Below, piece after piece: positions 3,753-26,372 of a DNA stretch of 64,000 bases (positions are counted from its first letter, which is position 1; each line of letters starts with the position of its first letter). The stretch covers positions 2,241 through 66,240 of the forward strand of contig DASZTD010000005.1 of NCBI GenBank assembly GCA_035548355.1. Reading direction: 5' to 3'. Source of the DNA: Pseudorhodoplanes sp. GTDB taxonomy: Bacteria; Pseudomonadota; Alphaproteobacteria; Rhizobiales; Xanthobacteraceae. The notes below the pieces were generated by a model. That model was not told the DNA's origin. It ran no database searches and saw only the letters and a program-made list of their open reading frames with translations. Made by a program: the position numbers and the translations under genes.

Positions 3753-4043
3753 ATGACTGGCTCCATGCGGTCGAGCGAAGGTTTGGACGAAAGGCGGCGG
3801 CGCCTGCTGTTCCGCTCCTGGCATCGCGGCATCCGGGAAACCGATCTGCTGCTCGGCCGATTCGCCGACGCGCATATCGCTTCGCTGAGCGAGGCCGAGC
3901 TTGCCATTTACGAGCGCCTGCTCGAGGTGCCCGATCACGATCTTTATTTGTGGGTGACGGGCGACGGCGGCGCCCCGCAGGAACATGACACCGCGCTGTT
4001 GCGCAGCCTGCGCGCCTTCCACCGCGGGATGAAGGTGAGCTGA
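3753..4043 (+). CDS. sdhE: Succinate dehydrogenase flavin assembly factor (SdhE/Sdh5)
   Basis: RRRRLLFRSWHRGIRETDLLLG; conserved recG-sdhE-mfd order. Confidence 0.9.
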   Translation: MTGSMRSSEGLDERRRRLLFRSWHRGIRETDLLLGRFADAHIASLSEAELAIYERLLEVPDHDLYLWVTGDGGAPQEHDTALLRSLRAFHRGMKVS

Positions 4044-7000
4044 TGGCGCCTTCTCCGGCCGACAGTCTCAAGGCGGGGCGGCCGCTGACGCTCGCCGGCG
4101 TCGCCGACGGCGCGGAAGGGCTCGTGCTCGGCGATCTCGCGCGCGCGATTGCTGCGCGGCCGGATGCGCCCTCCGTCAGCCTCGTGGCGATCTGCCGCGA
4201 CGCGCCGCGCATGGCGGCGCTGGCGCGGGGGCTTGCCTTCTTCGCTCCCGATGTCGCGACGATCGAATTTCCCGCCTGGGACTGCCTGCCTTACGACCGC
4301 GTGTCGCCGCATGGCGCCATACTCGCCCAGCGCATGACCACGCTGTCGCGGCTTGCGCATGTGCAGGGGCGCGACCGGCCCTCGATCCTCCTGACCACCG
4401 TCAACGCCATCGTGCAGCGCGTTCCGCCGAAAAGGACGTTGGCCGGACAGACGCTGTCCGCCGCGCCCGGCAATGTCCTCGGCATGGAGAATATCGTCGG
4501 CTGGCTCGAGCTGAACGGCTTCGTGCGCACATCGACGGTGCGCGAGCCCGGCGAATATGCCGTGCGCGGCGGCATTCTCGATCTTTTCCCCCCCGGCCTC
4601 GACGACCCGGTGCGGCTCGATTTTTTCGGCGACCAGCTCGAAACGATCCGCAGCTTCGACACCGACAGCCAGCGCACGATGGGGGAATTGCGCCATCTCG
4701 ATCTCGTCCCGGCGGCGGAATTTCAGCTCACCACGGAAACGATCGGCCGCTTCCGCACCGGCTATGTCGCCGCGTTCGGCGCGCCCTCGCGCGACGATCT
4801 CCTGTACGAGGCGATCAGCGAGGGCCGCAAATATGCGGGCATGGAGCATTGGCTGCCGCTGTTCCACGAGCGTCTCGATACGCTGTTCGACTACGTGCCG
4901 GGCTCGCCGATCGCGATCGAGCCGCTGTCGGAGGACGCCGCACACGAACGTTTCGCCCAGATCGCCGACTATTATGAGGCGCGCCGCAATCCGCTCGATG
5001 CCGGATCGGGAGTGCCCTACCATCCGCTGCCGCCGGAGCGGCTTTATCTGACCGAGGACGAGTGGAAGCGCCGGCTCGGTGCGACGGCGGTTGCGCGCAT
5101 CACCCAATTCCTCGTGCCCGACGCCGGCGACACGATCGAGATCGGTGCGCGGCAGGGCCGCAACTTTTCCGCCGAGCGCGCCGAACCGAACGCCAATGTC
5201 TTCGATGCCGTCGGCAAGCATGTCGCCGCGCTGCAGGAGCAGGGCAAGCGGGTAACGATCGCGCTGTGGAGCGAGGGCGCGCGCGAGCGCATGAGCCACG
5301 TGCTGCGCGACCACGGGCTTGCCAATCTCGCCAATGTCGGCTCTTGGCGCGAGGCGCTTTCGCGACCGAAGCCGGAAGTGTCGCTGGCGATCCTCGGCAT
5401 CGAATCCGGATTCGAGACGGCGGATGCGGCGATCATCAGCGAACAGGACATCCTCGGTGACCGGCTCGTGCGCCGGCGCAAGTCGGCCAAGCGGGCGGAG
5501 AATTTCATCGCCGAGGCGACCGCGCTCTCAGCCGGCGATCTCGTGGTTCATGTCGATCACGGCATCGGGCGCTTCGCCGGCCTGAAAACGATCGAAGCGG
5601 CGGGGGCGCCGCACGATTGTCTTGAAATCCGCTACGCCGACGACAACAAGCTCTATCTGCCGGTCGAGAATATCGAGCTTCTCTCCCGCTACGGTTCGGA
5701 GGAGGCGGGCGCGCAGCTCGACCGGCTCGGCGGCGGGGCGTGGCAGGCGCGCAAGGCGCGCATGAAAAGCCGCATCCGCGAGATGGCGCATGAGCTGCTC
5801 AAGGTTGCCGCCGAACGGCAGCTTCGCGAGGCGCCGCGGCTCTCCGTGGAGCCCGGCCTATACGACGAATTCTGCGCCGGCTTCCCCTACGAGGAGACGG
5901 AAGACCAACAGGCGGCGATCGACGCCGTGCTCAAAGACCTCGACGCGGGGCGGCCGATGGACCGGCTGGTCTGCGGCGATGTCGGCTTCGGCAAGACGGA
6001 GGTCGCGCTGCGCGCGGCTTTCGTCGCGGCGATGGGCGGAAAGCAGGTCGCCGTGGTCGTGCCGACCACGCTGCTCGCGCGGCAGCACTTCAAAACCTTT
6101 AGCGAACGTTTCCGGCATTTCCCGGTTAAGGTCGCGCTCGCCTCGCGTCTGGTGTCCAATACCGAGATGGCGAAGACAAAGGCGGCGCTCGCCTCCGGAG
6201 AGCTCAACATCGTCGTCGGCACGCATGCGCTGCTGGGCCGCGGGGTGAGGTTCAAGGACCTCGGCCTGATCGTCATCGACGAGGAGCAGCATTTCGGCGT
6301 CGCGCACAAGGAAAAGCTGAAACAGTTGCGGGCGGAGGTGCACGTGCTGACGCTGACGGCGACGCCGATCCCGCGCACGCTCCAGCTCGCGCTGACCGGC
6401 GTGCGCGACCTGTCGATCATCGCTTCGCCTCCCGTGGACCGGCTCGCGGTGCGGACCTTCGTCTCGCCGTTCGATCCGCTCGTGGTGCGCGAGGCGCTGC
6501 TTCGCGAACGCTATCGCGGCGGGCAATCCTTCTATGTCTGTCCTCGCATCGAGGATCTCGCCGGCGTCAAGGATTTCCTCGACAAGAACGTGCCGGAGGT
6601 GAAGGTCGCGGTGGCGCACGGGCAGATGGCCGGGACCATGCTCGAGGACATCATGTCCGCCTTTTACGACGGCAAATACGACGTGCTGCTCTCGACGACG
6701 ATCATCGAATCCGGCCTCGACATTCCGACTGCCAATACGCTGATCGTCCATCGCGCGGATCGTTTCGGCCTCGCCCAGCTCTACCAGCTTCGCGGCCGGG
6801 TGGGGCGCGCCAAGCTGCGCGCCTATGCGCTGTTCTCGCTGCCGGAGAAGAAGCGCATCACCGCGCAGGCCGAGCGGCGGCTGAAAGTACTGCAATCGCT
6901 CGATACGCTCGGCGCGGGCTTTCAGCTCGCCTCGCACGATCTCGATATCCGCGGCGCCGGCAACCTGCTCGGCGAAGAACAGTCCGGCCACATCAAGGAA

Positions 7001-7543
7001 GTCGGTTTCGAGCTTTACCAACAGATGCTGGAGGAAGCGGTGATGTCGCTGAAGGCCGGCATCAGGGAGCCGGTGGCGGACCGCTGGTCGCCGCAGATCA
7101 CGATCGGCATGCCGGTGCTGATCCCCGACCATTATGTGGCCGATCTATCGGTCCGGCTTTCGCTCTATCGCCGGCTGGCCGAAATCGATGACGAGCGGGA
7201 GATCGAGCCGTTCGCCGCCGAGCTCGTCGATCGGTTCGGACGCATGCCCGAGGAAACCGAGCATCTGCTCAAGATCGTCGCCATCAAGGCGTTGTGCCGC
7301 AAGGCCAATGTCGAGAAGGTCGATACCGGCCCGAAGGGCGCGGTGCTGTCCTTCCGCGACAACACCTTCGCCAATCCGGAGGCGCTGCTGCGCTTCATTG
7401 CCGGGCATGACGACGCCAAGGTGCGGCCGGACATGAAGGTCGTCTTCTTCGAGGATTGGGAGAATCCGGAGCAGCGGCTCGCCGGCACCGCGGCGATCCT
7501 GCGCGAACTGGTCAAGCTCGTGCAGCCGGCGAAAGCCGCCTAG
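4043..7543 (+). CDS. mfd: Transcription-repair coupling factor
   Basis: CGDVGFGKTEVA, DEEQHFGV, HDLDIRGAGNLLG; 1166 aa. Confidence 0.97.
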   Translation: MAPSPADSLKAGRPLTLAGVADGAEGLVLGDLARAIAARPDAPSVSLVAICRDAPRMAALARGLAFFAPDVATIEFPAWDCLPYDRVSPHGAILAQRMTTLSRLAHVQGRDRPSILLTTVNAIVQRVPPKRTLAGQTLSAAPGNVLGMENIVGWLELNGFVRTSTVREPGEYAVRGGILDLFPPGLDDPVRLDFFGDQLETIRSFDTDSQRTMGELRHLDLVPAAEFQLTTETIGRFRTGYVAAFGAPSRDDLLYEAISEGRKYAGMEHWLPLFHERLDTLFDYVPGSPIAIEPLSEDAAHERFAQIADYYEARRNPLDAGSGVPYHPLPPERLYLTEDEWKRRLGATAVARITQFLVPDAGDTIEIGARQGRNFSAERAEPNANVFDAVGKHVAALQEQGKRVTIALWSEGARERMSHVLRDHGLANLANVGSWREALSRPKPEVSLAILGIESGFETADAAIISEQDILGDRLVRRRKSAKRAENFIAEATALSAGDLVVHVDHGIGRFAGLKTIEAAGAPHDCLEIRYADDNKLYLPVENIELLSRYGSEEAGAQLDRLGGGAWQARKARMKSRIREMAHELLKVAAERQLREAPRLSVEPGLYDEFCAGFPYEETEDQQAAIDAVLKDLDAGRPMDRLVCGDVGFGKTEVALRAAFVAAMGGKQVAVVVPTTLLARQHFKTFSERFRHFPVKVALASRLVSNTEMAKTKAALASGELNIVVGTHALLGRGVRFKDLGLIVIDEEQHFGVAHKEKLKQLRAEVHVLTLTATPIPRTLQLALTGVRDLSIIASPPVDRLAVRTFVSPFDPLVVREALLRERYRGGQSFYVCPRIEDLAGVKDFLDKNVPEVKVAVAHGQMAGTMLEDIMSAFYDGKYDVLLSTTIIESGLDIPTANTLIVHRADRFGLAQLYQLRGRVGRAKLRAYALFSLPEKKRITAQAERRLKVLQSLDTLGAGFQLASHDLDIRGAGNLLGEEQSGHIKEVGFELYQQMLEEAVMSLKAGIREPVADRWSPQITIGMPVLIPDHYVADLSVRLSLYRRLAEIDDEREIEPFAAELVDRFGRMPEETEHLLKIVAIKALCRKANVEKVDTGPKGAVLSFRDNTFANPEALLRFIAGHDDAKVRPDMKVVFFEDWENPEQRLAGTAAILRELVKLVQPAKAA

Positions 7544-7566: not shown

Positions 7567-8226
7567 CTATTGCGCGGCCTGCGCAGCCTCGCGCCGCGTC
7601 GCCTCGCCCGCCGCCCGCTCGATGGCCCCGGCCAGATATTCGGGCGCCTGCGCGCCCGACACGGCGAGGATGCCGCCGAAGATGAAGCAGGGCACGCCGT
7701 CGATGCCGGCTTCCTTCGCCGCTTCTGCTTCCATCGTGACGCGCTCGATATCGGCATCGGTCGCAAGCCGCGCCTCGATCTCGGCGCGGTCGAGGCCGCA
7801 ATCGGCCGCCGCCTGAACGAGAACGGCCTTGTCGGTCAGGTCGCCGCCCTCGGTGAAATACAGATCCATGAGGCGCTGCTTCATACGCGCGGCGTCGCGG
7901 CCCGCCCATGCGATCAGCCGATGGCAGTCGGTCGTGTTGGGCTGCCGCGCGATGCGGTCGGGATTGTACACGAGCCCTTCCTGCGCCGCGGCCGCGACGA
8001 TGCGCTGGGCGATCTCCCGGTACCGTTCGGCCGAGCCGAATTTCCTGGTGAGGTATTCCACGCGGCTCATGCCTTCACGCGGAACCCAGTCGTTGAGAAA
8101 ATAGGGGCGGTAGCGCACCTCGACCGCGATGTCAGGCTTCAGCGCCAGCGCCTTTTCCAGCCGCCGCTTGCCTATAAAGCACCACGGACAGACCACGTCG
8201 GACACGACATCGATCGCAAGCGTCAT
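7567..8226 (-). CDS. DsbA family oxidoreductase (FrnE-like)
   Basis: DVVSDVVCPWCFIGKRRL and GVPCF cis-Pro loop. Confidence 0.9.
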   Translation of the reverse strand: MTLAIDVVSDVVCPWCFIGKRRLEKALALKPDIAVEVRYRPYFLNDWVPREGMSRVEYLTRKFGSAERYREIAQRIVAAAAQEGLVYNPDRIARQPNTTDCHRLIAWAGRDAARMKQRLMDLYFTEGGDLTDKAVLVQAAADCGLDRAEIEARLATDADIERVTMEAEAAKEAGIDGVPCFIFGGILAVSGAQAPEYLAGAIERAAGEATRREAAQAAQ

Positions 8227-8268: not shown

Positions 8269-9516
8269 TCAAGCCGCAATCTGGGGGGCGAGCACGCGCG
8301 TCAGCAGCGAGACGACGTTGTCGGAGGGCTTGCGCGCGGTGAGGGTAACCTGCGGGGCGAGGGCGGGATGCTGTCCGCCGCTCAGCATCGTCTGCTTGAG
8401 GATGCTCGCGAGCCTGCGCGCCACGACATGGGCGTGCTGCAGATCGGTTTCGGCGAAGGTCACGAGGATCGAGCCGTCATCCTGGCGGCAGCCGAAATCG
8501 CCGCCGCGCACCAGCCGGCTCAGCAGCCGTGCCGCGTCGAGATTGCCGCGTTCGTTCAAGTCGTCGGGGAACGAAAACCTCGCCACCGACAGGCCGACGC
8601 CACGCTCGTCGGCGGACTGGATCGCGCGCTCGAGTTCGCGGGTGAAATTCTCCGGCCGCAGCAGGCCGGTATCGGGGTCGATCATGCCTTCCTGTTCGAG
8701 CGACTGCAGCAGGCGCTTGAGCCGCGCCTCGAAGGCGTGCAGCCGCACATAGGGCAGGAGATGGGCGATCAGCAATTCCGGATCGGTGCCGACGACGATG
8801 TGCAGATCGTGCTCAAGCTCGATGCCGGGCTTGGCGAGAACGCCGATCGGCATGTCGCGGAAGCGGGTATCCTCGCCGAGCACCGTCAGAAGACTGTCGA
8901 CCGCCGTCGCCGAAAATCCGTCGCCGATGACCAGTCCGTCGGCGTCGCGTCCCTTGAGATAGCGCGCGGCGGTTTCGATGGTCAGCGCGCCGATCAGCCC
9001 GGCCTTCTCTCCGACCGGAAGCGTCAGCGCCGGATAGGTGCGGCCGCGCCCGGCAACGATCACGATGGCGTCGCCCAGCGGGTCGTTCCTCGGCACCGCC
9101 GGAACGGCATGGCCTTCGTCTCTCGCGATCTGCGAGCGGCGCAGGATCGCCGCATGCAGCGTGCGCACCCGCACTGCTCTCGACACCGCGTAGCATGTGG
9201 CCGATATGAGCGTGTTGTCGTGAACGGGTAACGCCTCGCGATAGGCGGGATGGGCGGTCTCGCGCAGGCGCGCGATCACCGGGATGATCGGTGTCGCCGC
9301 AGTGACCGTTTCGGCAAGCGCCCGGGCAAGGGAAGCATCTTCGGATGCCGTGGAGTCTGCGAGCACGACGGCTTCCGGCCGGGCCGCTTCAATGGCGGCG
9401 ATAGCATCGGAGGGCGCCGCCTCGATCACCGGGAAGGCGCCGGCCGCGGCCAGAGCGCCCACGAGCTTTTCGGAGGGTTTCTCGGCAACGACGACGAGCG
9501 AACCTTGAAGAGACAT
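8269..9516 (-). CDS. PleD/PopA-like protein: two degenerate receiver domains plus degenerate GGDEF domain with RxxD I-site
   Basis: IDPDTGLL (DxLTGL-like), RGGDFGCRQDDGSI aligning to RxxDxxxRxGGDEF; ATG at 9516 chosen. Confidence 0.7.
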   Translation of the reverse strand: MSLQGSLVVVAEKPSEKLVGALAAAGAFPVIEAAPSDAIAAIEAARPEAVVLADSTASEDASLARALAETVTAATPIIPVIARLRETAHPAYREALPVHDNTLISATCYAVSRAVRVRTLHAAILRRSQIARDEGHAVPAVPRNDPLGDAIVIVAGRGRTYPALTLPVGEKAGLIGALTIETAARYLKGRDADGLVIGDGFSATAVDSLLTVLGEDTRFRDMPIGVLAKPGIELEHDLHIVVGTDPELLIAHLLPYVRLHAFEARLKRLLQSLEQEGMIDPDTGLLRPENFTRELERAIQSADERGVGLSVARFSFPDDLNERGNLDAARLLSRLVRGGDFGCRQDDGSILVTFAETDLQHAHVVARRLASILKQTMLSGGQHPALAPQVTLTARKPSDNVVSLLTRVLAPQIAA

Positions 9517-9567
9517 CGGACCTGCTGCGACTGGGATTTCAATCACGCAAGCATAGGCCGTGCCGAC

Positions 9568-9583
9568 TTAATGACGGGTCAAC
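9568..9583. promoter_or_regulatory. Putative CtrA-binding box upstream of the GGDEF-like gene
   Basis: TTAA-tgacggg-TCAAC (one mismatch to TTAA-N7-TTAA); additional GTTAAC half-site at 9605-9610. Confidence 0.45.
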
Positions 9584-9616
9584 GCGATCGCTGAGTTTTG
9601 GCGCGTTAACGATATA

Positions 9617-11161
9617 TCAGGGCAAATCGCGCCGCATTCGTTCGCGGAACGCGCGCACGATGAGCGGATTGGCGCCGATCGCTTCGAGCGCGTCGCGCGT
9701 GGCGGCTCGGTCCGGGGAATGACCGGCGAGGCGATGGCCCATCGTCCGGTCGGGAAGCGCGGCGATGGTCGCCCCGGAATCTGCGCCGGCCACGAGATCC
9801 TGCAATTCGCGCCACGCGAAACGATAACCGCCGACACTGACCAGCCCGGAAGGCGGGCCGGTGACGATCAGCGAACCGGTTTCGCGGATGGCGCGGCACG
9901 GATAGCCGGTATTCACCATGCCGTCGGCGGCGACGCGCAGGAAGGCACGGCCCCTGCGCTCGGCATCCGGCGGGAAAGGGTAGCGCGGAACCATCGGCCC
10001 ACCGGCGGCCAGCGTGCCGGCCGAGGTCCGGGCGAGATCGGCGACGCGTATTGCGCCGGGTTCTCCGCGCGGAACCATGACCGGGCCGAAGGGCAGCGGC
10101 AGCGGTCTTCCGTCCTCCTCCCGGCGTCCGGCAACAACGGCGGTTTCGCCGAGGGCGACGATGTCGGTCATGGCGATCGCGGGATGGCGCCAGCCGGCCG
10201 TTCCGATCAGCCGTTCCGCCGCTCGCCACACGGCGAGCAAGTTCGTCACGCGATGCCCAGGCGGCAGAAAATCGGTTCCGGCGAGATGCGCCGCGAGCGG
10301 TCCGGGTAGCACGACCGTATCGCATCCATGGCCGACGACCTGTGCGGCGAAAATGTCCAGCGAGAAGGCATGGTGGAGCACGAGGGTTCCGCCAGACAAA
10401 AGCCAAGGGAGCAGCCCCGCCGAGAGGCCTGCGAGGGAGGACGGCTCGACGGTGGAGAGGATCGCCGGATGTGGCGGCAGCCTGCTTTCGAGCAGGACGG
10501 CCGTTCCGGCGGCGGCGAGCTCGCGATGACTGCGCGCGACGGCGATCAGGCCATCGGCCGTCACGTCCCAGGTGATGGCGGCGACATGCGCGGCCGGCAC
10601 CTCGTCATGCGCGCGGGCGGGCGGCGGGGGATCGAAGCTGACGCCCTCGTAAAGGTCGTCCAAGGGGATGATTCCGTCGGGAACCTGCGGACCGAAGCCG
10701 CAGACATGCCGGATCGAGAAAATCTCGGCGGCGGTCTGCATCGCGATCCGGAAATGCTCGGCGCCGCCATGCGCGCCGCGGGTGATCAGCGCCCGCGCGC
10801 CGGCAAGCGACAGCGCGGCGACGCAGTCCGCGCGCCTCCACAGGAGCGGCAGCGGCGCCGCGATCATGCCTGCGCGCAGTGTACCGAGAAAGGCGAGAAC
10901 GTGGTCGATGGTGTTTGGCAATTGCAGCCCGATCACCGCGTCGGTCGAAAGCCCGAGGCGATGGAGGCGCGCGGCGATCGCCGACACGATCCGGTCGGCT
11001 TGCGCAAAGGAGAGACGGCGCGGCGCAGCATCCCGCGCGGGATCCGGCAAATCGACGAGGGCCGCCGCGTCGGGGTGTTCCTGCGCCGCGCGCCGCAGCA
11101 TTTCGTCGAGCGTGACGCGATTGGCGGATCGTGCGTCCGATATGGCGTCGCCCGGGATCAT
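9617..11161 (-). CDS. Class I adenylate-forming (AMP-binding) fold protein with degenerate catalytic motifs
   Basis: N-terminal TLDEMLRRAAQEHPDAAALVD...LSFAQAD...LGTLRAGMIAAPLP typical of ANL enzymes; ATGA overlap with upstream SBP stop. Confidence 0.75.
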   Translation of the reverse strand: MIPGDAISDARSANRVTLDEMLRRAAQEHPDAAALVDLPDPARDAAPRRLSFAQADRIVSAIAARLHRLGLSTDAVIGLQLPNTIDHVLAFLGTLRAGMIAAPLPLLWRRADCVAALSLAGARALITRGAHGGAEHFRIAMQTAAEIFSIRHVCGFGPQVPDGIIPLDDLYEGVSFDPPPPARAHDEVPAAHVAAITWDVTADGLIAVARSHRELAAAGTAVLLESRLPPHPAILSTVEPSSLAGLSAGLLPWLLSGGTLVLHHAFSLDIFAAQVVGHGCDTVVLPGPLAAHLAGTDFLPPGHRVTNLLAVWRAAERLIGTAGWRHPAIAMTDIVALGETAVVAGRREEDGRPLPLPFGPVMVPRGEPGAIRVADLARTSAGTLAAGGPMVPRYPFPPDAERRGRAFLRVAADGMVNTGYPCRAIRETGSLIVTGPPSGLVSVGGYRFAWRELQDLVAGADSGATIAALPDRTMGHRLAGHSPDRAATRDALEAIGANPLIVRAFRERMRRDLP

Positions 11162-13032
11162 GGCTTGTGCCACCAGGTTTCGGGCAGATAGCCGAACAGC
11201 GACGTCCTTGCCGGATGCTCGATAAAGGCGCGGCGGGCGACCCACTGGTCCGGCAGATGGAAGAGCGGCACGACGTAGAATCCGGATACCAGCACGCGGT
11301 CGAGCGCGCGCACGGCGGAGACGAATTCGGAACGCTCGCGCGCCTGCAGCAGCGCGGCGATCATCGCGTCGATCGCCGGATTTTTCGCGCCCATATAGTT
11401 GCGCGTGCCCTGTGCATCGGCGGCGGCGCTGCTCCAGTAGAAGCTCTGCTCGTTGCCGGGCGACAGCGACTGGTCCCACTTGTACTGGATCATGTCGTAG
11501 TCGTAGGTGAGCTTGCGGCGGTCAAACTGGACCGCATCGACCGCGCGCACATGCGCGGCTATTCCCGCGCGCTTGAGGTCGCGCGCGAAGGCGAGCGCCA
11601 GCCTCTCCTGGTCCTTGGTGACGACGAGAATCTCGAATTCGAACGGCGTCCCGTCGGCGCGCGAACGCAGCACCGTTCCGTCGAGGTCGAAACCCGCCTG
11701 CGAGAACAGCGCCAACGCTTTTTTCAGGTTGGCCCGGTCGCGGCCGGTGCCGTCATTGACCGGGGGATGCCATGAGCCGTCCATCACATCGGGGCGCACC
11801 GTGCCGGGAAAGGGGGCGAGCAGGGCGCGCTCACGCGGATCGGCGGGGTGGCCGGAAAAGGACAGCTCCGACCCCTCGAAATAGCTGACCGTGCGGCGAT
11901 AGGCGTTGAAATAGAAATTCTTGTTCAACCACTCGAAATCGAACAGGAGGCCGATCGCCTCGCGCACGCGGATGTCGGCGAAAAGCGGACGGCGCGTGTT
12001 GAAGACGAAGGCGTCGAGCGGCTTGGGCAGCGCATAAGGAAAGCTCTCCTTGACCACGCGCCCGTCGCGCAGGGCGGGAAAATCGTATTGCGTGGCCCAG
12101 CGACCCGGATCGCTTTCTGCGCGCACGTCGTAAAGCCCTTTCTTGAACGCCTCGAAATAGGTGTTGGCGTCCCGATAATAGTCGAAGCGCAACTCGTCGA
12201 AGTTCCAGAAGCCGCGATTGATCGCAAGATCGCGTCCCCAGTAATTCGGATCGCGCGTGAAGGTAACGCTTTCGCCCGGCTTCACCGCGGTCACCCGGTA
12301 AGGCCCGCTGCCGATCGGCGGCTCAAAACTCGTCTCCTCGAAGGTATCGGCGTTGACCGCGTGCCTGGGCAGCACCGGCATCAATCCGAGGATCAGCGGC
12401 AATTCGCGATCGTTGGCGCCCGCGAGATCGAAGCGCACCGAGCGGCCGACGATCTGCGCCTTATTGACCTTGGCGTAATAGGTGCGGTGATTGGGGCGGC
12501 CCTTGTCGCGCAGCAATTGCCAGGAGAAGACCACGTCCTGCGGCGTGACCGGCTTGCCGTCGGAAAATCGCGCGCGCGGATCAAGCGTGAAGGTGACGAA
12601 GCTGCGTTCGTCGTCGGTCTCGACGCTTTGCGCGAGCAGGCCGTAGAGCGTGAACGGCTCGTCGTAACCGCGCGCGAGCAGGCTTTCGATCACGTAGCCG
12701 CGGATGCTTTGCGCCGGCAGGCCCTTCACAATCAACGGATTGAGGCTGTCGAATGTGCCGAGCACGCCCTGGACGAGGCGGCCGCCTTTCGGCGCCGCCG
12801 GGTTCGCGTAGGGAAGGTCGGAAAAGCCCGGCGGCCAGGCGGGCTTGCCGTGCATGGCGATTGCGTGAGCGGGCTCGGCGATGCCGGAGGTTGCCGTGAC
12901 GGACAAAGCGCAGGCGAGCGCGAGGGCGGCGAAAAGCCCCGTCGGCGAAATCTTGCCGCGGGCAGGAACGGCGCGGAAATCCTTCAGCGGCATCGCGTTT
13001 TTCGGTTTGATTCTCGCCGGTCGGTGCTTCAT
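11158..13032 (-). CDS. ABC-type extracellular solute-binding protein family 5 (YejA-like); exact start uncertain
   Basis: HAIAMHGKP, YANPAAPKGG, GTFDSLNP, ARFSDGKPVT, SPGNEQ; signal-peptide-like N-terminus. Confidence 0.9.
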   Translation of the reverse strand: MKHRPARIKPKNAMPLKDFRAVPARGKISPTGLFAALALACALSVTATSGIAEPAHAIAMHGKPAWPPGFSDLPYANPAAPKGGRLVQGVLGTFDSLNPLIVKGLPAQSIRGYVIESLLARGYDEPFTLYGLLAQSVETDDERSFVTFTLDPRARFSDGKPVTPQDVVFSWQLLRDKGRPNHRTYYAKVNKAQIVGRSVRFDLAGANDRELPLILGLMPVLPRHAVNADTFEETSFEPPIGSGPYRVTAVKPGESVTFTRDPNYWGRDLAINRGFWNFDELRFDYYRDANTYFEAFKKGLYDVRAESDPGRWATQYDFPALRDGRVVKESFPYALPKPLDAFVFNTRRPLFADIRVREAIGLLFDFEWLNKNFYFNAYRRTVSYFEGSELSFSGHPADPRERALLAPFPGTVRPDVMDGSWHPPVNDGTGRDRANLKKALALFSQAGFDLDGTVLRSRADGTPFEFEILVVTKDQERLALAFARDLKRAGIAAHVRAVDAVQFDRRKLTYDYDMIQYKWDQSLSPGNEQSFYWSSAAADAQGTRNYMGAKNPAIDAMIAALLQARERSEFVSAVRALDRVLVSGFYVVPLFHLPDQWVARRAFIEHPARTSLFGYLPETWWHKP

Positions 13033-23822: not shown

Positions 23823-25145
23823 TCAGAATCCGACCACCGTCCCGTGCAGGTCGTATTCGTCCGCGCGCTCGATTTTGACAGTGGCGATTTCGCCCACCTT
23901 GAGCGGACGACGGCTCGCCACGTGGACCACGCCGTCGATTTCCGGGGCGTCGGCTTTGCTGCGGCCCTTGGCACCGGAGGGGTCGATCTCGTCGACGATG
24001 ACCTGCTGGCGCGTCCCGACCTTGCGCTTGAGCCTCCTCAGCGAAATCCTCTGCTGCCTTTCCATGAATCGCTGCCGGCGACGCTCCTTCACCTCTTCGG
24101 GCACCGGGGCGGCGAGCTCGTTGGCGGCGGCTCCGTTCACCGGTTCGTATTTGAAGCAGCCGACCCGGTCGAGCGCGGCCTCCTCGAGCCATTCGAGCAG
24201 AAACTCGAAATCCTCGTCGGTCTCGCCCGGAAAGCCGACGATGAAGGTCGAGCGGATCGCGAGATCGGGACAGATCTCGCGCCAGCGCCGGATGCGCTCC
24301 AGCGTCTTTTCCTGCGCCGCCGGACGGCGCATGCGCTTCAAGATTTCAGGCGCGGCATGCTGAAACGGGATGTCGAGATAGGGCAGAATCTTTCCTTCCG
24401 CCATCAGCGGTATGACGTCGTCGACATGCGGATAGGGATAGACGTAATGCAGCCGCACCCAGATGCCGAGTTCGCCCAGCGCGCGGACGATGTCGATAAA
24501 TTTCGCGCGCAGCGGCGCGCCCTTCCAGTCGCTTTCGGCATAGCGAATATCGACGCCGTAGGCCGAGGTGTCCTGGGAAATCACCAGCAGTTCTCTGACG
24601 CCCGCCGCCGCCAGCCTTTCCGCCTCGCGCATCACGTCGGCGGCCGGACGCGACACGAGGTCGCCGCGCAGTTTCGGAATGATGCAGAAGCTGCACCGGT
24701 TGTTGCAGCCTTCGGAAATCTTCAGATAGGCGTAATGGCGCGGCGTGAGCTTGATCCCCTGCGGCGGCACGAGATCGAGAAAGGGATCGTGGCGCGGCGG
24801 CGCGGCGCGATGCACCGCGTCGAGAACGCTTTCAAATTGCTGCGGGCCGGTGATCGCCAGAACGTTGGGGAAGCGCCCGGCGATTTTCTCCGGCTCCGCG
24901 CCCATGCAGCCGGTGACGATCACCTTGCCGTTCTCCGCCAGCGCCTTGCCGATCGCGTCGAGCGATTCAGCCTGCGCGCTGTCGAGAAAGCCGCAGGTAT
25001 TCACCACGACGAGATCGCTGCCCTTGTGCTCGCGCGCAAGCTCGTAGCCTTCCGCCCGCAACCTCGTGATGATGCGTTCAGAATCGACCAGCGCCTTGGG
25101 ACAGCCGAGCGAGACGAAAGAAATGCGCGGCGCGGATGCGCTCAT
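23823..25145 (-). CDS. rimO: Ribosomal protein S12 methylthiotransferase RimO
   Basis: [25 protein letters not shown] radical SAM motif, TRAM-like C-terminus. Confidence 0.96.
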
Positions 25146-25340: not shown

Positions 25341-25356
25341 TTTAGCAATTGTTAAC
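25341..25356 (+). promoter_or_regulatory. Putative CtrA-binding box
   Basis: TTTA-gcaattg-TTAAC, one mismatch to TTAA-N7-TTAAC, in the rimO / LysM-lipoprotein divergent region. Confidence 0.5.
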
Positions 25357-25445: not shown

Positions 25446-26372
25446 GTGACTCGGAATCTCAGCCTCGCCTTTCTCCTTCTCTGCAGCCTCGCCACGGCGG
25501 GATGCGGCACGATGAATTTCGTGGACACGATGACGACCGGCTCGATCGCGGCGGAGCCGCAGGCCGAGGGCAGGGGGCATGTCTATATCTTTCGCGGTGT
25601 CGGCGGAAAGCTGGCGACGATGGACCTCGACCGCCTCGCCGACAGGATCAATGCGCAGGGCGTCAGCGCCAAGGTCTATGACTTCATGGAATGGCGGATG
25701 CCGGCGCAGGAGGCGATCGCGCGCTACCGTTCGGAGGCGCGTCCAAGCCCGATCGTCCTGCTCGGGCATTCGGCCGGGGCCGATGTCGCGCTGAGCTTCG
25801 CCGAAAGGCTGAAGGAGGAGCGGATACCGGTCAGCCTCGTGATCACGCTCGACCCCACCCGGCTGCCGCACGACGTGCCGCCCAATGTCGACCGGTTCAT
25901 CAACATCTACGCCTCGATGAATTTCTTCGGCGGCGGCAATGTCAGCTCGGGCGGAGACTATCGCGGGCATTTCGCTAGCATCGATCTGAAGAATTACTGG
26001 GAGGTGCCGCATGTGCGCATGCTGCGGATTGGCGGGCTGGACGACCGGCTGGTGGAGAAGATCGTGCGCGTAGCGACCGCGCAGCCGAACCTGGAGGGGA
26101 TCACCGTTCCGATCCGCTACGTGATGCCGCGCGGCATGAAGGTGGAGCTGTGGGATTCCGGCGTCCCGGTCCGCGCCGAAGCCGGCGACACGGCGGGGCG
26201 GATCGCCGCCCGTTACGGAGTGCCGGCCTGGATAGTCGCGCAGCTCAACGATGTGGACGAAGCCTCGCCGCTCGAACCCGGCCGACGGATCGTGATACCG
26301 CGCGATCTCGACGCCGCGCCTCCGCCAGCCGTCGGTGGCCCGCTGACGAGCTACGTGCCGCCGGCGCGCTAG
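25446..26372 (+). CDS. Putative lipoprotein with alpha/beta-hydrolase-like domain and C-terminal LysM domain
   Basis: Lipobox-like TAGC, LLGHSAGA nucleophile elbow, GDTAGRIAARYGV...LN...LEPGRRIVIP LysM pattern. Confidence 0.75.
   Translation: MTRNLSLAFLLLCSLATAGCGTMNFVDTMTTGSIAAEPQAEGRGHVYIFRGVGGKLATMDLDRLADRINAQGVSAKVYDFMEWRMPAQEAIARYRSEARPSPIVLLGHSAGADVALSFAERLKEERIPVSLVITLDPTRLPHDVPPNVDRFINIYASMNFFGGGNVSSGGDYRGHFASIDLKNYWEVPHVRMLRIGGLDDRLVEKIVRVATAQPNLEGITVPIRYVMPRGMKVELWDSGVPVRAEAGDTAGRIAARYGVPAWIVAQLNDVDEASPLEPGRRIVIPRDLDAAPPPAVGGPLTSYVPPAR

What the first reader, a model, noticed from the sequence alone, without database searches (positions are those of the whole stretch)
8269..9610. 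PopA-like c-di-GMP effector: dead GGDEF, intact I-site, CtrA-like boxes upstream
Seen: 415-aa protein with two receiver-like segments lacking clear phospho-acceptor motifs, then IDPDTGLL and RGGDFGCRQDDGSI. This aligns to RxxD-xxx-R-x-GGDEF: the I-site (nt 8497-8508) is kept and the A-site is replaced by DDGSI (nt 8467-8481). The 100-bp upstream gap holds TTAA-N7-TCAAC and a GTTAAC half-site. Known: Caulobacter PopA has this REC-REC-degenerate GGDEF layout, binds c-di-GMP through the I-site and acts as a ClpXP adaptor for CtrA; as I recall it is usually described as absent from rhizobia. Inference: an uncharacterised cell-cycle c-di-GMP receptor or adaptor in Hyphomicrobiales.
Basis: partly seen in the sequence, partly recalled or inferred. 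Interest (0 to 1): 0.75.

Follow-up and report, generated by a model that had tools for sequence, protein, structure and literature searches.

The report
Hidden PopA orthologue under CtrA control
This gene is a distant orthologue of the Caulobacter cell-cycle protein PopA, found in a bacterial family (Xanthobacteraceae, including Bradyrhizobium) outside the range the literature gives for it; it likely senses the messenger c-di-GMP to help destroy the master regulator CtrA, and is predicted to be switched on by CtrA itself.

Summary
Window 9516-8269 (-) encodes a 415-aa REC-REC-GGDEF protein (AF2 pLDDT 90; best fold match full-length PleD). Its catalytic site is dead. The c-di-GMP I-site triad R337/D340/R368 is kept in 121 of 121 and 110 of 110 orthologues.

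It is more than PopA-like. It sits in the popA>frnE><mfd<sdhE block that holds Caulobacter popA, aligns end to end with Caulobacteraceae PopA (HHalign E 6e-27), and groups with PopA; a separate origin from PleD is rejected (AU p=0.00015). It occurs in 43 of 60 family genomes, always with RcdA, and in Bradyrhizobium. Similar genes sit at this locus in other alphaproteobacterial families, although print says PopA is limited to Caulobacter and close relatives.

A CtrA-type box lies upstream in 77 of 79 promoters, in activator geometry. Caulobacter popA is listed under GcrA, not CtrA. The extra GTTAAC half-site is not conserved.

c-di-GMP binding, RcdA binding (weak model support only) and CtrA delivery to ClpXP are inferred, not shown. 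Ozaki 2014 could not be read.

The parts
8269..9516 (-). popA orthologue, 415 aa (REC-REC-degenerate GGDEF)
9157..9504 (-). REC1 pseudo-receiver (about residues 5-120), Ala53 at the phospho-acceptor position; predicted RcdA-binding end
   Evidence: RcdA contact only weakly modelled
8731..9075 (-). REC2 pseudo-receiver (about residues 148-262); most conserved part in the clade (AGRGR, DG..IGDGF, EDxRFRDLP)
8281..8688 (-). degenerate GGDEF domain (about residues 277-412); metal-binding Asp replaced by R313, about 10 residues of the GTP-binding stretch deleted
8497..8508 (-). I-site R337-G-G-D340
   Evidence: invariant in 121 of 121 and 110 of 110
8413..8415 (-). R368, third I-site residue (PleD R390)
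   Evidence: invariant also in 55 of 55 class-wide rows
8467..8481 (-). dead A-site DDGSI in place of GG[DE]EF
   Evidence: 0 of 121 and 0 of 110 carry GG[DE]EF
9568..9582 (-). CtrA-type box TTGA-N7-TTAA
   Evidence: TTNA-N7-TTAA in 77 of 79 promoters, shuffle mean 0.53; 25 of 31 family-wide
9550..9555 (-). -10-like hexamer TATGCT at position 28 counted from the box's first base (predicted)
   Evidence: YANNNT at position 27-28 in 63 of 77; no transcription start was mapped
9605..9610 (.).
7567..8226 (-). frnE/DsbA-family gene 42 bp downstream; synteny marker
   Evidence: directly downstream in 76 of 78 loci; same place in Caulobacter
4043..7543 (+). mfd, convergent; synteny marker
3753..4043 (+). 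sdhE (Sdh5), upstream of mfd; synteny marker

Best explanation
The gene encodes a catalytically dead, divergent orthologue of Caulobacter PopA that likely binds c-di-GMP at its intact I-site and likely works as the last adaptor (with RcdA and CpdR) delivering CtrA to ClpXP, and its promoter is predicted to be activated by CtrA. SHOWN here: REC-REC-GGDEF fold, lost A-site, invariant I-site triad, orthology by position, profile and tree, a conserved CtrA-type box, and genes for CtrA, RcdA (PopA-binding basic residues kept), CpdR, PleD and PopZ in the same genome. INFERRED from Caulobacter work: (1) PleD-made c-di-GMP rises at G1-S and binds R337/D340/R368; (2) the protein dimerises and docks on PopZ at the old pole; (3) its receiver end binds a monomer of RcdA on CpdR-primed ClpXP and brings CtrA in. 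INFERRED from the promoter: CtrA~P would stock both adaptors (popA and rcdA) in predivisional cells, a delayed negative loop that fires only when c-di-GMP rises. My odds: orthology about 0.9, c-di-GMP binding about 0.85, CtrA binding at the box about 0.8, retained CtrA-adaptor role about 0.55.
For: Position: Caulobacter NA1000 has popA(+) frnE(+) mfd(-) sdh5(-) (CCNA_01918-01921; supplement rows of PMC8959179), the same order and orientation as the window; frnE follows in 76 of 78 and mfd in 52 of 70 named loci with room. Profile: clade alignment A2 vs Caulobacteraceae PopA alignment A3, probability 99.7, E 6.4e-27, 413 columns, 20% identity; close homologues of A3's first row are named 'cell cycle response regulator PopA' by JGI. 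The A2 profile scores Caulobacteraceae PopA (69-120 bits) and other Hyphomicrobiales PopA (89-147) mostly above PleD (36-70). Trees: all 49 PopA-like rows split from 12 PleD rows, SH-aLRT 100; forcing our clade with Hyphomicrobiales PleD is rejected, p-AU 0.00015. A separate canonical pleD lies beside divK. I-site triad: 121/121, 110/110, 32/36 most diverse, 54/55 class-wide. Partners: rcdA keeps R47/K51/R55 = Caulobacter R49/K53/R57, the PopA-binding cluster of bioRxiv 2020.06.12.148478; ctrA, cpdR and popZ are present. Co-occurrence in 60 family genomes: 43 of 43 PopA+ have strong RcdA and 41 of 43 have PleD; all 8 genomes with missing or weak RcdA lack PopA, and 9 of 11 without PleD lack it. 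Complex model REC1-REC2 + RcdA: weak support, score 0.36 (runs 0.00/0.36/0.46) vs best control 0.00, runs share at least 30% of contacts, partner pLDDT 74-78; the mark was reached by 116 of 157 solved and 2 of 215 mismatched pairs, but at 0.60 or under by only 18 of 157 and by both mismatches. Promoter: box in 77 of 79 (shuffles mean 0.53, max 3), including 4 perfect TTAA-N7-TTAA; absent from the 8 frnE loci (9 stretches) where popA is cleanly deleted; similar boxes precede rcdA in 30 of 30 and sciP, flgB, flgI, flagellin, ftsW, pbpC, a pdhS-like kinase and motA in this genome; a -10-like hexamer sits at position 27-28 in 63 of 77, which would put the box near -39 as at CtrA-activated promoters (PMC4287350).
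Against: No binding or degradation data exist here. Identity to Caulobacteraceae PopA is only about 20% and the clade has a long stem (1.65-2.14 changes per column), so partners may have changed. REC1, the recalled RcdA-binding domain, is the least conserved part and lost its Asp. PleD's secondary I-site R313 is not kept (aligns to S301). The complex score is in the range that is more often wrong than right. RcdA's basic cluster is conserved regardless of PopA, and 8 of 60 family genomes keep RcdA and PleD without PopA, so CtrA turnover can presumably run without it. The co-losses come from a few probably related genera and are not independent. In Hyphomonas, which has popA, CtrA is not controlled by proteolysis (PMC7200025). 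clpX was not found in this 89%-complete assembly, though present in 5 of 5 congeners. The first half of the box is TTGAC, which also resembles a sigma-70 -35 element. The tree is rooted on PleD only.
Confidence: 0.6

Rival explanations
1. It is a PopA orthologue and c-di-GMP receptor, but its output has changed: it acts at the pole on flagellar assembly, polar adhesin or other RcdA/ClpXP substrates rather than CtrA.
For: Caulobacter PopA has a second, ClpXP-independent role at the flagellated pole (PMC8020655). A CtrA-activated promoter is typical of flagellar and polar genes. Long stem branch and clade-specific conserved motifs in REC2. Hyphomonas has popA without regulated CtrA proteolysis. 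Dispensable in 8 genomes that keep RcdA and PleD.
Against: PopA was never found without strong RcdA (43 of 43). rcdA carries the same kind of box (30 of 30). Weak model support for an RcdA contact, 0.36 vs control 0.00.
Confidence: 0.3
2. It arose independently from a duplicated pleD in Xanthobacteraceae and only converged on the PopA layout.
For: About equal pairwise identity to PopA (21%) and to the genome's own PleD (19%). Long branches can attract each other in trees (warning).
Against: Same chromosomal slot as Caulobacter popA and as less diverged PopA-like genes of other families. AU test rejects grouping with Hyphomicrobiales PleD (the group was named after the first tree was seen). The profile prefers PopA rows over PleD rows.
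Confidence: 0.04
3. It is still an active or phosphorylation-controlled diguanylate cyclase.
For: Annotated 'GGDEF domain-containing protein' by sources. An Asp follows one residue after the canonical site in both REC domains (D54, D199).
Against: GG[DE]EF absent in 121 of 121 and 110 of 110. Metal-binding Asp replaced by Arg313, GTP-binding stretch deleted, C-terminal AKxxGRN motif missing. Pfam GGDEF score 13 bits, below the cut-off of 23.8.
Confidence: 0.02
4. The protein reading is right but the upstream motif is a plain sigma-70 promoter (TTGAC = -35), or CtrA represses rather than activates there.
For: 68 of 79 promoters have exactly TTGAC as first half, stronger conservation than CtrA half-sites need.
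Against: The spacer TTAA is invariant in 77 of 77 aligned. 4 promoters have perfect TTAA-N7-TTAA and 5 have TTCAC. The -10-like hexamer lies 20-21 nt after TTGACN, too far for a 17-nt spacer. The sigma-70 scan found nothing.
Confidence: 0.15

Closest known systems
PopA of Caulobacter vibrioides (CCNA_01918), c-di-GMP effector and ClpXP adaptor for CtrA
   Same: REC-REC-degenerate GGDEF, RxxD I-site (R357 there, PMC8020655), PleD paralogue, same gene neighbourhood (frnE, mfd, sdhE), same tree group, co-occurs with RcdA.
   Different: About 20% identity to Caulobacteraceae PopA (the NA1000 sequence itself was not fetched). About 25 residues shorter, with a deletion in the GGDEF domain. REC1 Asp replaced by Ala. 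Conserved CtrA-type box, whereas NA1000 popA is in the GcrA dataset and not in the CtrA-motif datasets of PMC4287350, and only 1 of 30 loci from that order had such a box.
PleD (REC-REC-GGDEF diguanylate cyclase; PDB 1W25, 2V0N, 2WB4, 9G85/6)
   Same: Whole three-domain fold and primary I-site R359/D362/R390.
   Different: No GGEEF, no metal ligands, no phospho-Asp, secondary-site R313 not kept, not beside divK; the genome has its own canonical pleD.
'PopA-like receptors' of alphaproteobacteria (PMC10333796, Fig. 5a legend)
   Same: That review already shows PopA-like I-site receptors beyond Caulobacter species.
   Different: Only the legend was seen; it names no Xanthobacteraceae or Bradyrhizobium member, synteny or promoter. 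Overlap with the less diverged class-level genes found here is possible.
FcrX of Sinorhizobium meliloti (PMC11929396)
   Same: Proposed factor linking CtrA to ClpXP/RcdA/CpdR in a hyphomicrobial species.
   Different: Described there as weakly FliJ-like and used where PopA is said to be absent; not compared by sequence here.

Membership tests
PopA | Tandem receiver domains plus GGDEF domain, paralogous to PleD | tested here: met
   AF2 model and fold searches; separate pleD
PopA | Degenerate A-site, no cyclase motif | tested here: met
   DDGSI; 0 of 121 and 0 of 110 with GG[DE]EF
PopA | Intact RxxD I-site | tested here: met
   R337/D340/R368 in 121/121, 110/110
PopA | Common descent with Caulobacter popA (position, profile, tree) | tested here: met
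   proxy sequences from Caulobacteraceae, not NA1000 itself
PopA | Binds c-di-GMP through the I-site | not testable with these tools
   inferred from the residues only
PopA | Binds RcdA 1:1 | tested here: inconclusive
   weak model support, 0.36 vs control 0.00; RcdA basic cluster kept; never without RcdA in 43 genomes
PopA | Needed for CtrA degradation by ClpXP | not testable with these tools
   ctrA, cpdR, rcdA present; clpX not found in this assembly, present in 5 of 5 congeners
PopA | Polar localisation through PopZ and PodJ | not testable with these tools
   popZ family gene present; podJ not searched
PleD | GG[DE]EF active site with metal ligands | tested here: not met
PleD | Phospho-acceptor Asp in REC1 and position beside divK | tested here: not met
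   A53; neighbours are frnE and an AMP-binding-family gene
CtrA regulon (full-site promoter) | TTAA-N7-TTAA-like site with its 5' base near -35/-39 | tested here: met
   77 of 79, -10-like hexamer at 27-28 in 63 of 77; start site itself not mapped
CtrA regulon (full-site promoter) | CtrA occupancy and CtrA-dependent transcription | not testable with these tools
   no ChIP or expression data for this lineage were examined

The most novel reading that the evidence does not exclude
PopA is not a Caulobacter invention but an old alphaproteobacterial gene at the frnE-mfd locus, lost many times. In Xanthobacteraceae, including Bradyrhizobium, it diverged beyond recognition and moved under direct CtrA control, so CtrA transcribes its whole own adaptor pair (popA and rcdA) and c-di-GMP alone times its destruction: a feedback loop Caulobacter does not have.
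Probability: 0.4. Interest if true: 0.68.

Novelty: new variant of a known kind. Interest (0 to 1): 0.5.

Why it matters
A preprint states that CpdR and RcdA are conserved across alphaproteobacteria while PopA is present only in Caulobacter and close relatives, and that unknown adaptors must fill its role elsewhere (10.1101/2020.06.12.148478). This names a concrete candidate in a large family of soil and symbiotic bacteria, so the question whether c-di-GMP times CtrA proteolysis outside Caulobacter becomes testable in cultured Bradyrhizobium. It does not solve the question for Sinorhizobium, where PopA is reported absent. It also suggests rewiring of one cell-cycle node from GcrA to CtrA control, and explains why annotation misses the gene: 0 of 120 top homologues are named PopA, and the Pfam GGDEF score is below cut-off. 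The kind of system is known, so the surprise is moderate.

Tried and rejected
Single-sequence searches failed: no PDB hit, and only sub-threshold Pfam/NCBIfam hits; profiles were needed. Duerig 2009, Joshi 2015 and Ozaki 2014 were not held, so PopA's ATEVF motif, D55 and the REC1-RcdA assignment are recalled, and Ozaki's list of PopA-bearing species is unseen. Ten literature searches listed no paper describing PopA in Bradyrhizobium, Rhodopseudomonas or Xanthobacteraceae; the library lacks most subscription papers, and I read only some listed papers. The NA1000 PopA sequence was not obtained; Caulobacteraceae proxies were used. A C-terminal AA ClpX degron was considered: the window protein ends in AA, but only 21 of 121 homologues do (87 end AAE), so it was rejected as a family trait. 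The GTTAAC half-site was rejected as a conserved element. The pleD promoter control (0 of 14 boxes) is weak because pleD lies behind divK. The sigma-70 scan found no site. Earlier scan findings: none by sequence or words. Four guessed CpdR candidates gave no CpdR match; the family search then found it. Order- and class-level searches scored only 18 and 5 candidates per genome, so absences mean 'not found in those searched'.

Full report
1. Observation. The finding covers one ORF, 9516-8269 on the minus strand, 415 aa. All quoted motifs are at the stated coordinates. Single-sequence searches barely see it: Pfam GGDEF 13 bits, NCBIfam PleD E 0.004, no PDB hit. A profile of 121 homologues finds PleD structures first (E 1.9e-6). 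The AF2 model (pLDDT 90.1) matches full-length PleD (Foldseek E 2.6e-18; VIA Z 21.7, 391 aligned, rmsd 16 A), and its last domain matches isolated GGDEF domains at about 3 A. So REC-REC-GGDEF is established.

2. Dead enzyme, kept pocket. Against PleD, R337/D340/R368 match the primary I-site R359/D362/R390, and DDGSI replaces GGEEF. R313 stands where the metal-binding Asp would be, and about ten residues of the GTP-binding stretch are gone. The triad is kept in 121 of 121 close homologues, 110 of 110 genome loci, 32 of 36 most diverse rows and 54 of 55 class-wide rows; none of the 121 or 110 has GG[DE]EF. PleD's secondary-site R313 is not kept. Both receivers lack Asp at the canonical place (A53, G198). 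Selection has kept a ligand pocket, not a catalyst.

3. Orthology to PopA. (a) Position: supplement rows of PMC8959179 give Caulobacter NA1000 popA(+), frnE(+), mfd(-), sdh5(-); the window has gene > DsbA/FrnE >< mfd < sdhE. In 80 named GTDB loci (Pseudorhodoplanes, Rhodoplanes, Xanthobacteraceae and unnamed alphaproteobacterial MAGs; the best 80 of 338) frnE follows in 76 of 78 and mfd in 52 of 70 with room. (b) Profile: a class-wide search gave a protein beside mfd whose relatives are named PopA by JGI and come from Phenylobacterium; their alignment matches ours end to end (probability 99.7, E 6.4e-27, 20% identity). (c) Trees: 49 PopA-like rows versus 12 PleD rows, SH-aLRT 100, our clade on a long stem; on 26 of those 61 rows, joining our clade to Hyphomicrobiales PleD is rejected (p-AU 0.00015; group named after seeing the first tree; rooted on PleD only). 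The genome has its own pleD beside divK. The NA1000 protein itself was not fetched.

4. Distribution. Found in 23 of 24 congeneric genomes, 43 of 60 family genomes and Bradyrhizobium (WP_315832791.1, MDR3484381.1; 41% identity, triad kept). In the order, 18 of 90 genomes had a clear PopA-like gene, 2 a weak one, and 3 second hits were not inspected. Of 78 stretches downstream of mfd, 7 held a clear and 2 a weak one; several keep the flanking genes with popA missing. In 8 family genomes the AMP-binding-family gene abuts frnE. Among the top 29 class-level loci inspected (300 genomes searched), 24 were PopA-like and 21 of these lay beside frnE or mfd. The simplest reading is an old gene lost repeatedly. 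Searches scored few candidates per genome, so absences are provisional.

5. Partners. The genome encodes CtrA, RcdA, CpdR and PopZ. clpX was not found in this 89%-complete assembly but is in 5 of 5 congeners. RcdA keeps R47/K51/R55, equal to Caulobacter R49/K53/R57, the residues needed for PopA binding (passages of bioRxiv 2020.06.12.148478). In 60 family genomes, 43 of 43 PopA carriers have strong RcdA and 41 have PleD; all 8 with missing or weak RcdA lack PopA; 8 others keep RcdA and PleD without PopA. The co-losses come from few, probably related genera. A complex model of residues 1-275 with RcdA gave weak support: 0.36 (runs 0.00, 0.36, 0.46) against best control 0.00, runs agreeing in at least 30% of contacts, partner pLDDT 74-78. 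That mark was reached by 116 of 157 solved and 2 of 215 mismatched pairs, but at 0.60 or under by only 18 of 157 and both mismatches. It shifts my odds little.

6. Promoter. TTNA-N7-TTAA lies upstream in 77 of 79 promoters (78 loci plus the window; 2 of the 80 loci were cut at the 5' end and dropped): 68 TTGAC-N6-TTAA, 4 perfect TTAA-N7-TTAA, 5 TTCAC; shuffles give a mean of 0.53, maximum 3. Family-wide it is in 25 of 31, in other Hyphomicrobiales 4 of 17, and in 2 of 53 distinct PopA-like loci of other orders. It disappears where popA is deleted (0 of 9 stretches). The same pattern occurs at 42 places in this genome, 38 outside predicted ORFs, before rcdA, sciP, flgB, flgI, flagellin, motA, ftsW, pbpC and a pdhS-like kinase among others (54 ORFs scanned, many unnamed or unrelated), and before rcdA in 30 of 30 relatives. 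A -10-like hexamer starts at position 27-28 of the box frame in 63 of 77, which would put the box near -39, the activating geometry described in PMC4287350 (passages). In that paper's supplements (12 of 20 files searched, including the CtrA datasets S5-S7) popA appears under GcrA (S12) and not under CtrA, while rcdA appears under CtrA. Hyphomonas popA is also reported not CtrA-regulated (PMC7200025 passages).

7. Mechanism. By analogy with Caulobacter (PMC8020655, abstract and introduction; PMC10212136 passages), c-di-GMP from PleD would bind the I-site, the protein would dimerise and dock at the pole, bind RcdA on CpdR-primed ClpXP, and deliver CtrA. The promoter suggests CtrA~P makes both adaptors in advance, with c-di-GMP as trigger. 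Fold, residues, orthology, box and partner genes are shown; every binding and proteolysis step is inferred. The main rival is a c-di-GMP receptor with a changed output (0.3).

8. What is known. [quoted passage not shown] PMC10333796 shows 'PopA like receptors' in alphaproteobacteria (legend only), so the wider range is partly anticipated. PMC12700997 reports joint loss of popA, rcdA, cpdR and pleD in non-dimorphic Caulobacterales (passage), like the co-loss seen here. PMC3577659 (one passage) added nothing on range. Ozaki 2014, Duerig 2009 and Joshi 2015 were not available; Ozaki's species list could lower the novelty. Ten searches listed no description of this clade.

9. Verdict. A real, well-conserved, unannotated PopA orthologue with a lineage-specific CtrA-type promoter: a new variant of a known kind. 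Interest 0.5: it corrects a stated range and gives a direct test of c-di-GMP-timed CtrA proteolysis outside Caulobacter, but function is untested.

Noticed in passing
window 9617-11479 (-): AMP-binding-family (PF00501) gene whose P-loop signature [TS]SG[ST]TG is missing in 69 of 69 orthologues, replaced by [ILV][TS][WF][DE] in 64. It stays in the mfd-frnE-SBP5-ialB block even where popA is lost: a conserved possible pseudo-enzyme of unknown role.
   Followed up: partly
L021, L279-L308 (rcdA promoters): A CtrA-type TTNA-N7-TTAA box, mostly TT[TA]A, lies upstream of rcdA in 30 of 30 family genomes and in the own genome.
   Followed up: partly
G482, G485, G493, G497, G500, G518, G525, G527, G532: Nine near-complete family genomes lack matches to PopA, PleD and the FrnE query, and have missing, weak or lower-scoring RcdA: a lineage that seems to have shed the c-di-GMP cell-cycle module.
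   Followed up: partly
L033:598-1938 (-), L060:1492-2826 (-): Two proteins at the PopA locus in other orders still carry GGDEF; possible intermediates between PleD and PopA.
   Followed up: no
L237:2962-3852 (+), L269:3530-4768 (-): Very eroded PopA-like ORFs near frnE in two other Hyphomicrobiales families.
   Followed up: no
window 25341-25355: A second CtrA-type box (TTTA-N7-TTAA) in the window, between rimO (23826-25145, -) and an unnamed 308-aa ORF (25446-26369, +).
   Followed up: no
G000 whole assembly: No clpX match, though 5 of 5 congeners have it; probably an assembly gap at 89% completeness.
   Followed up: partly
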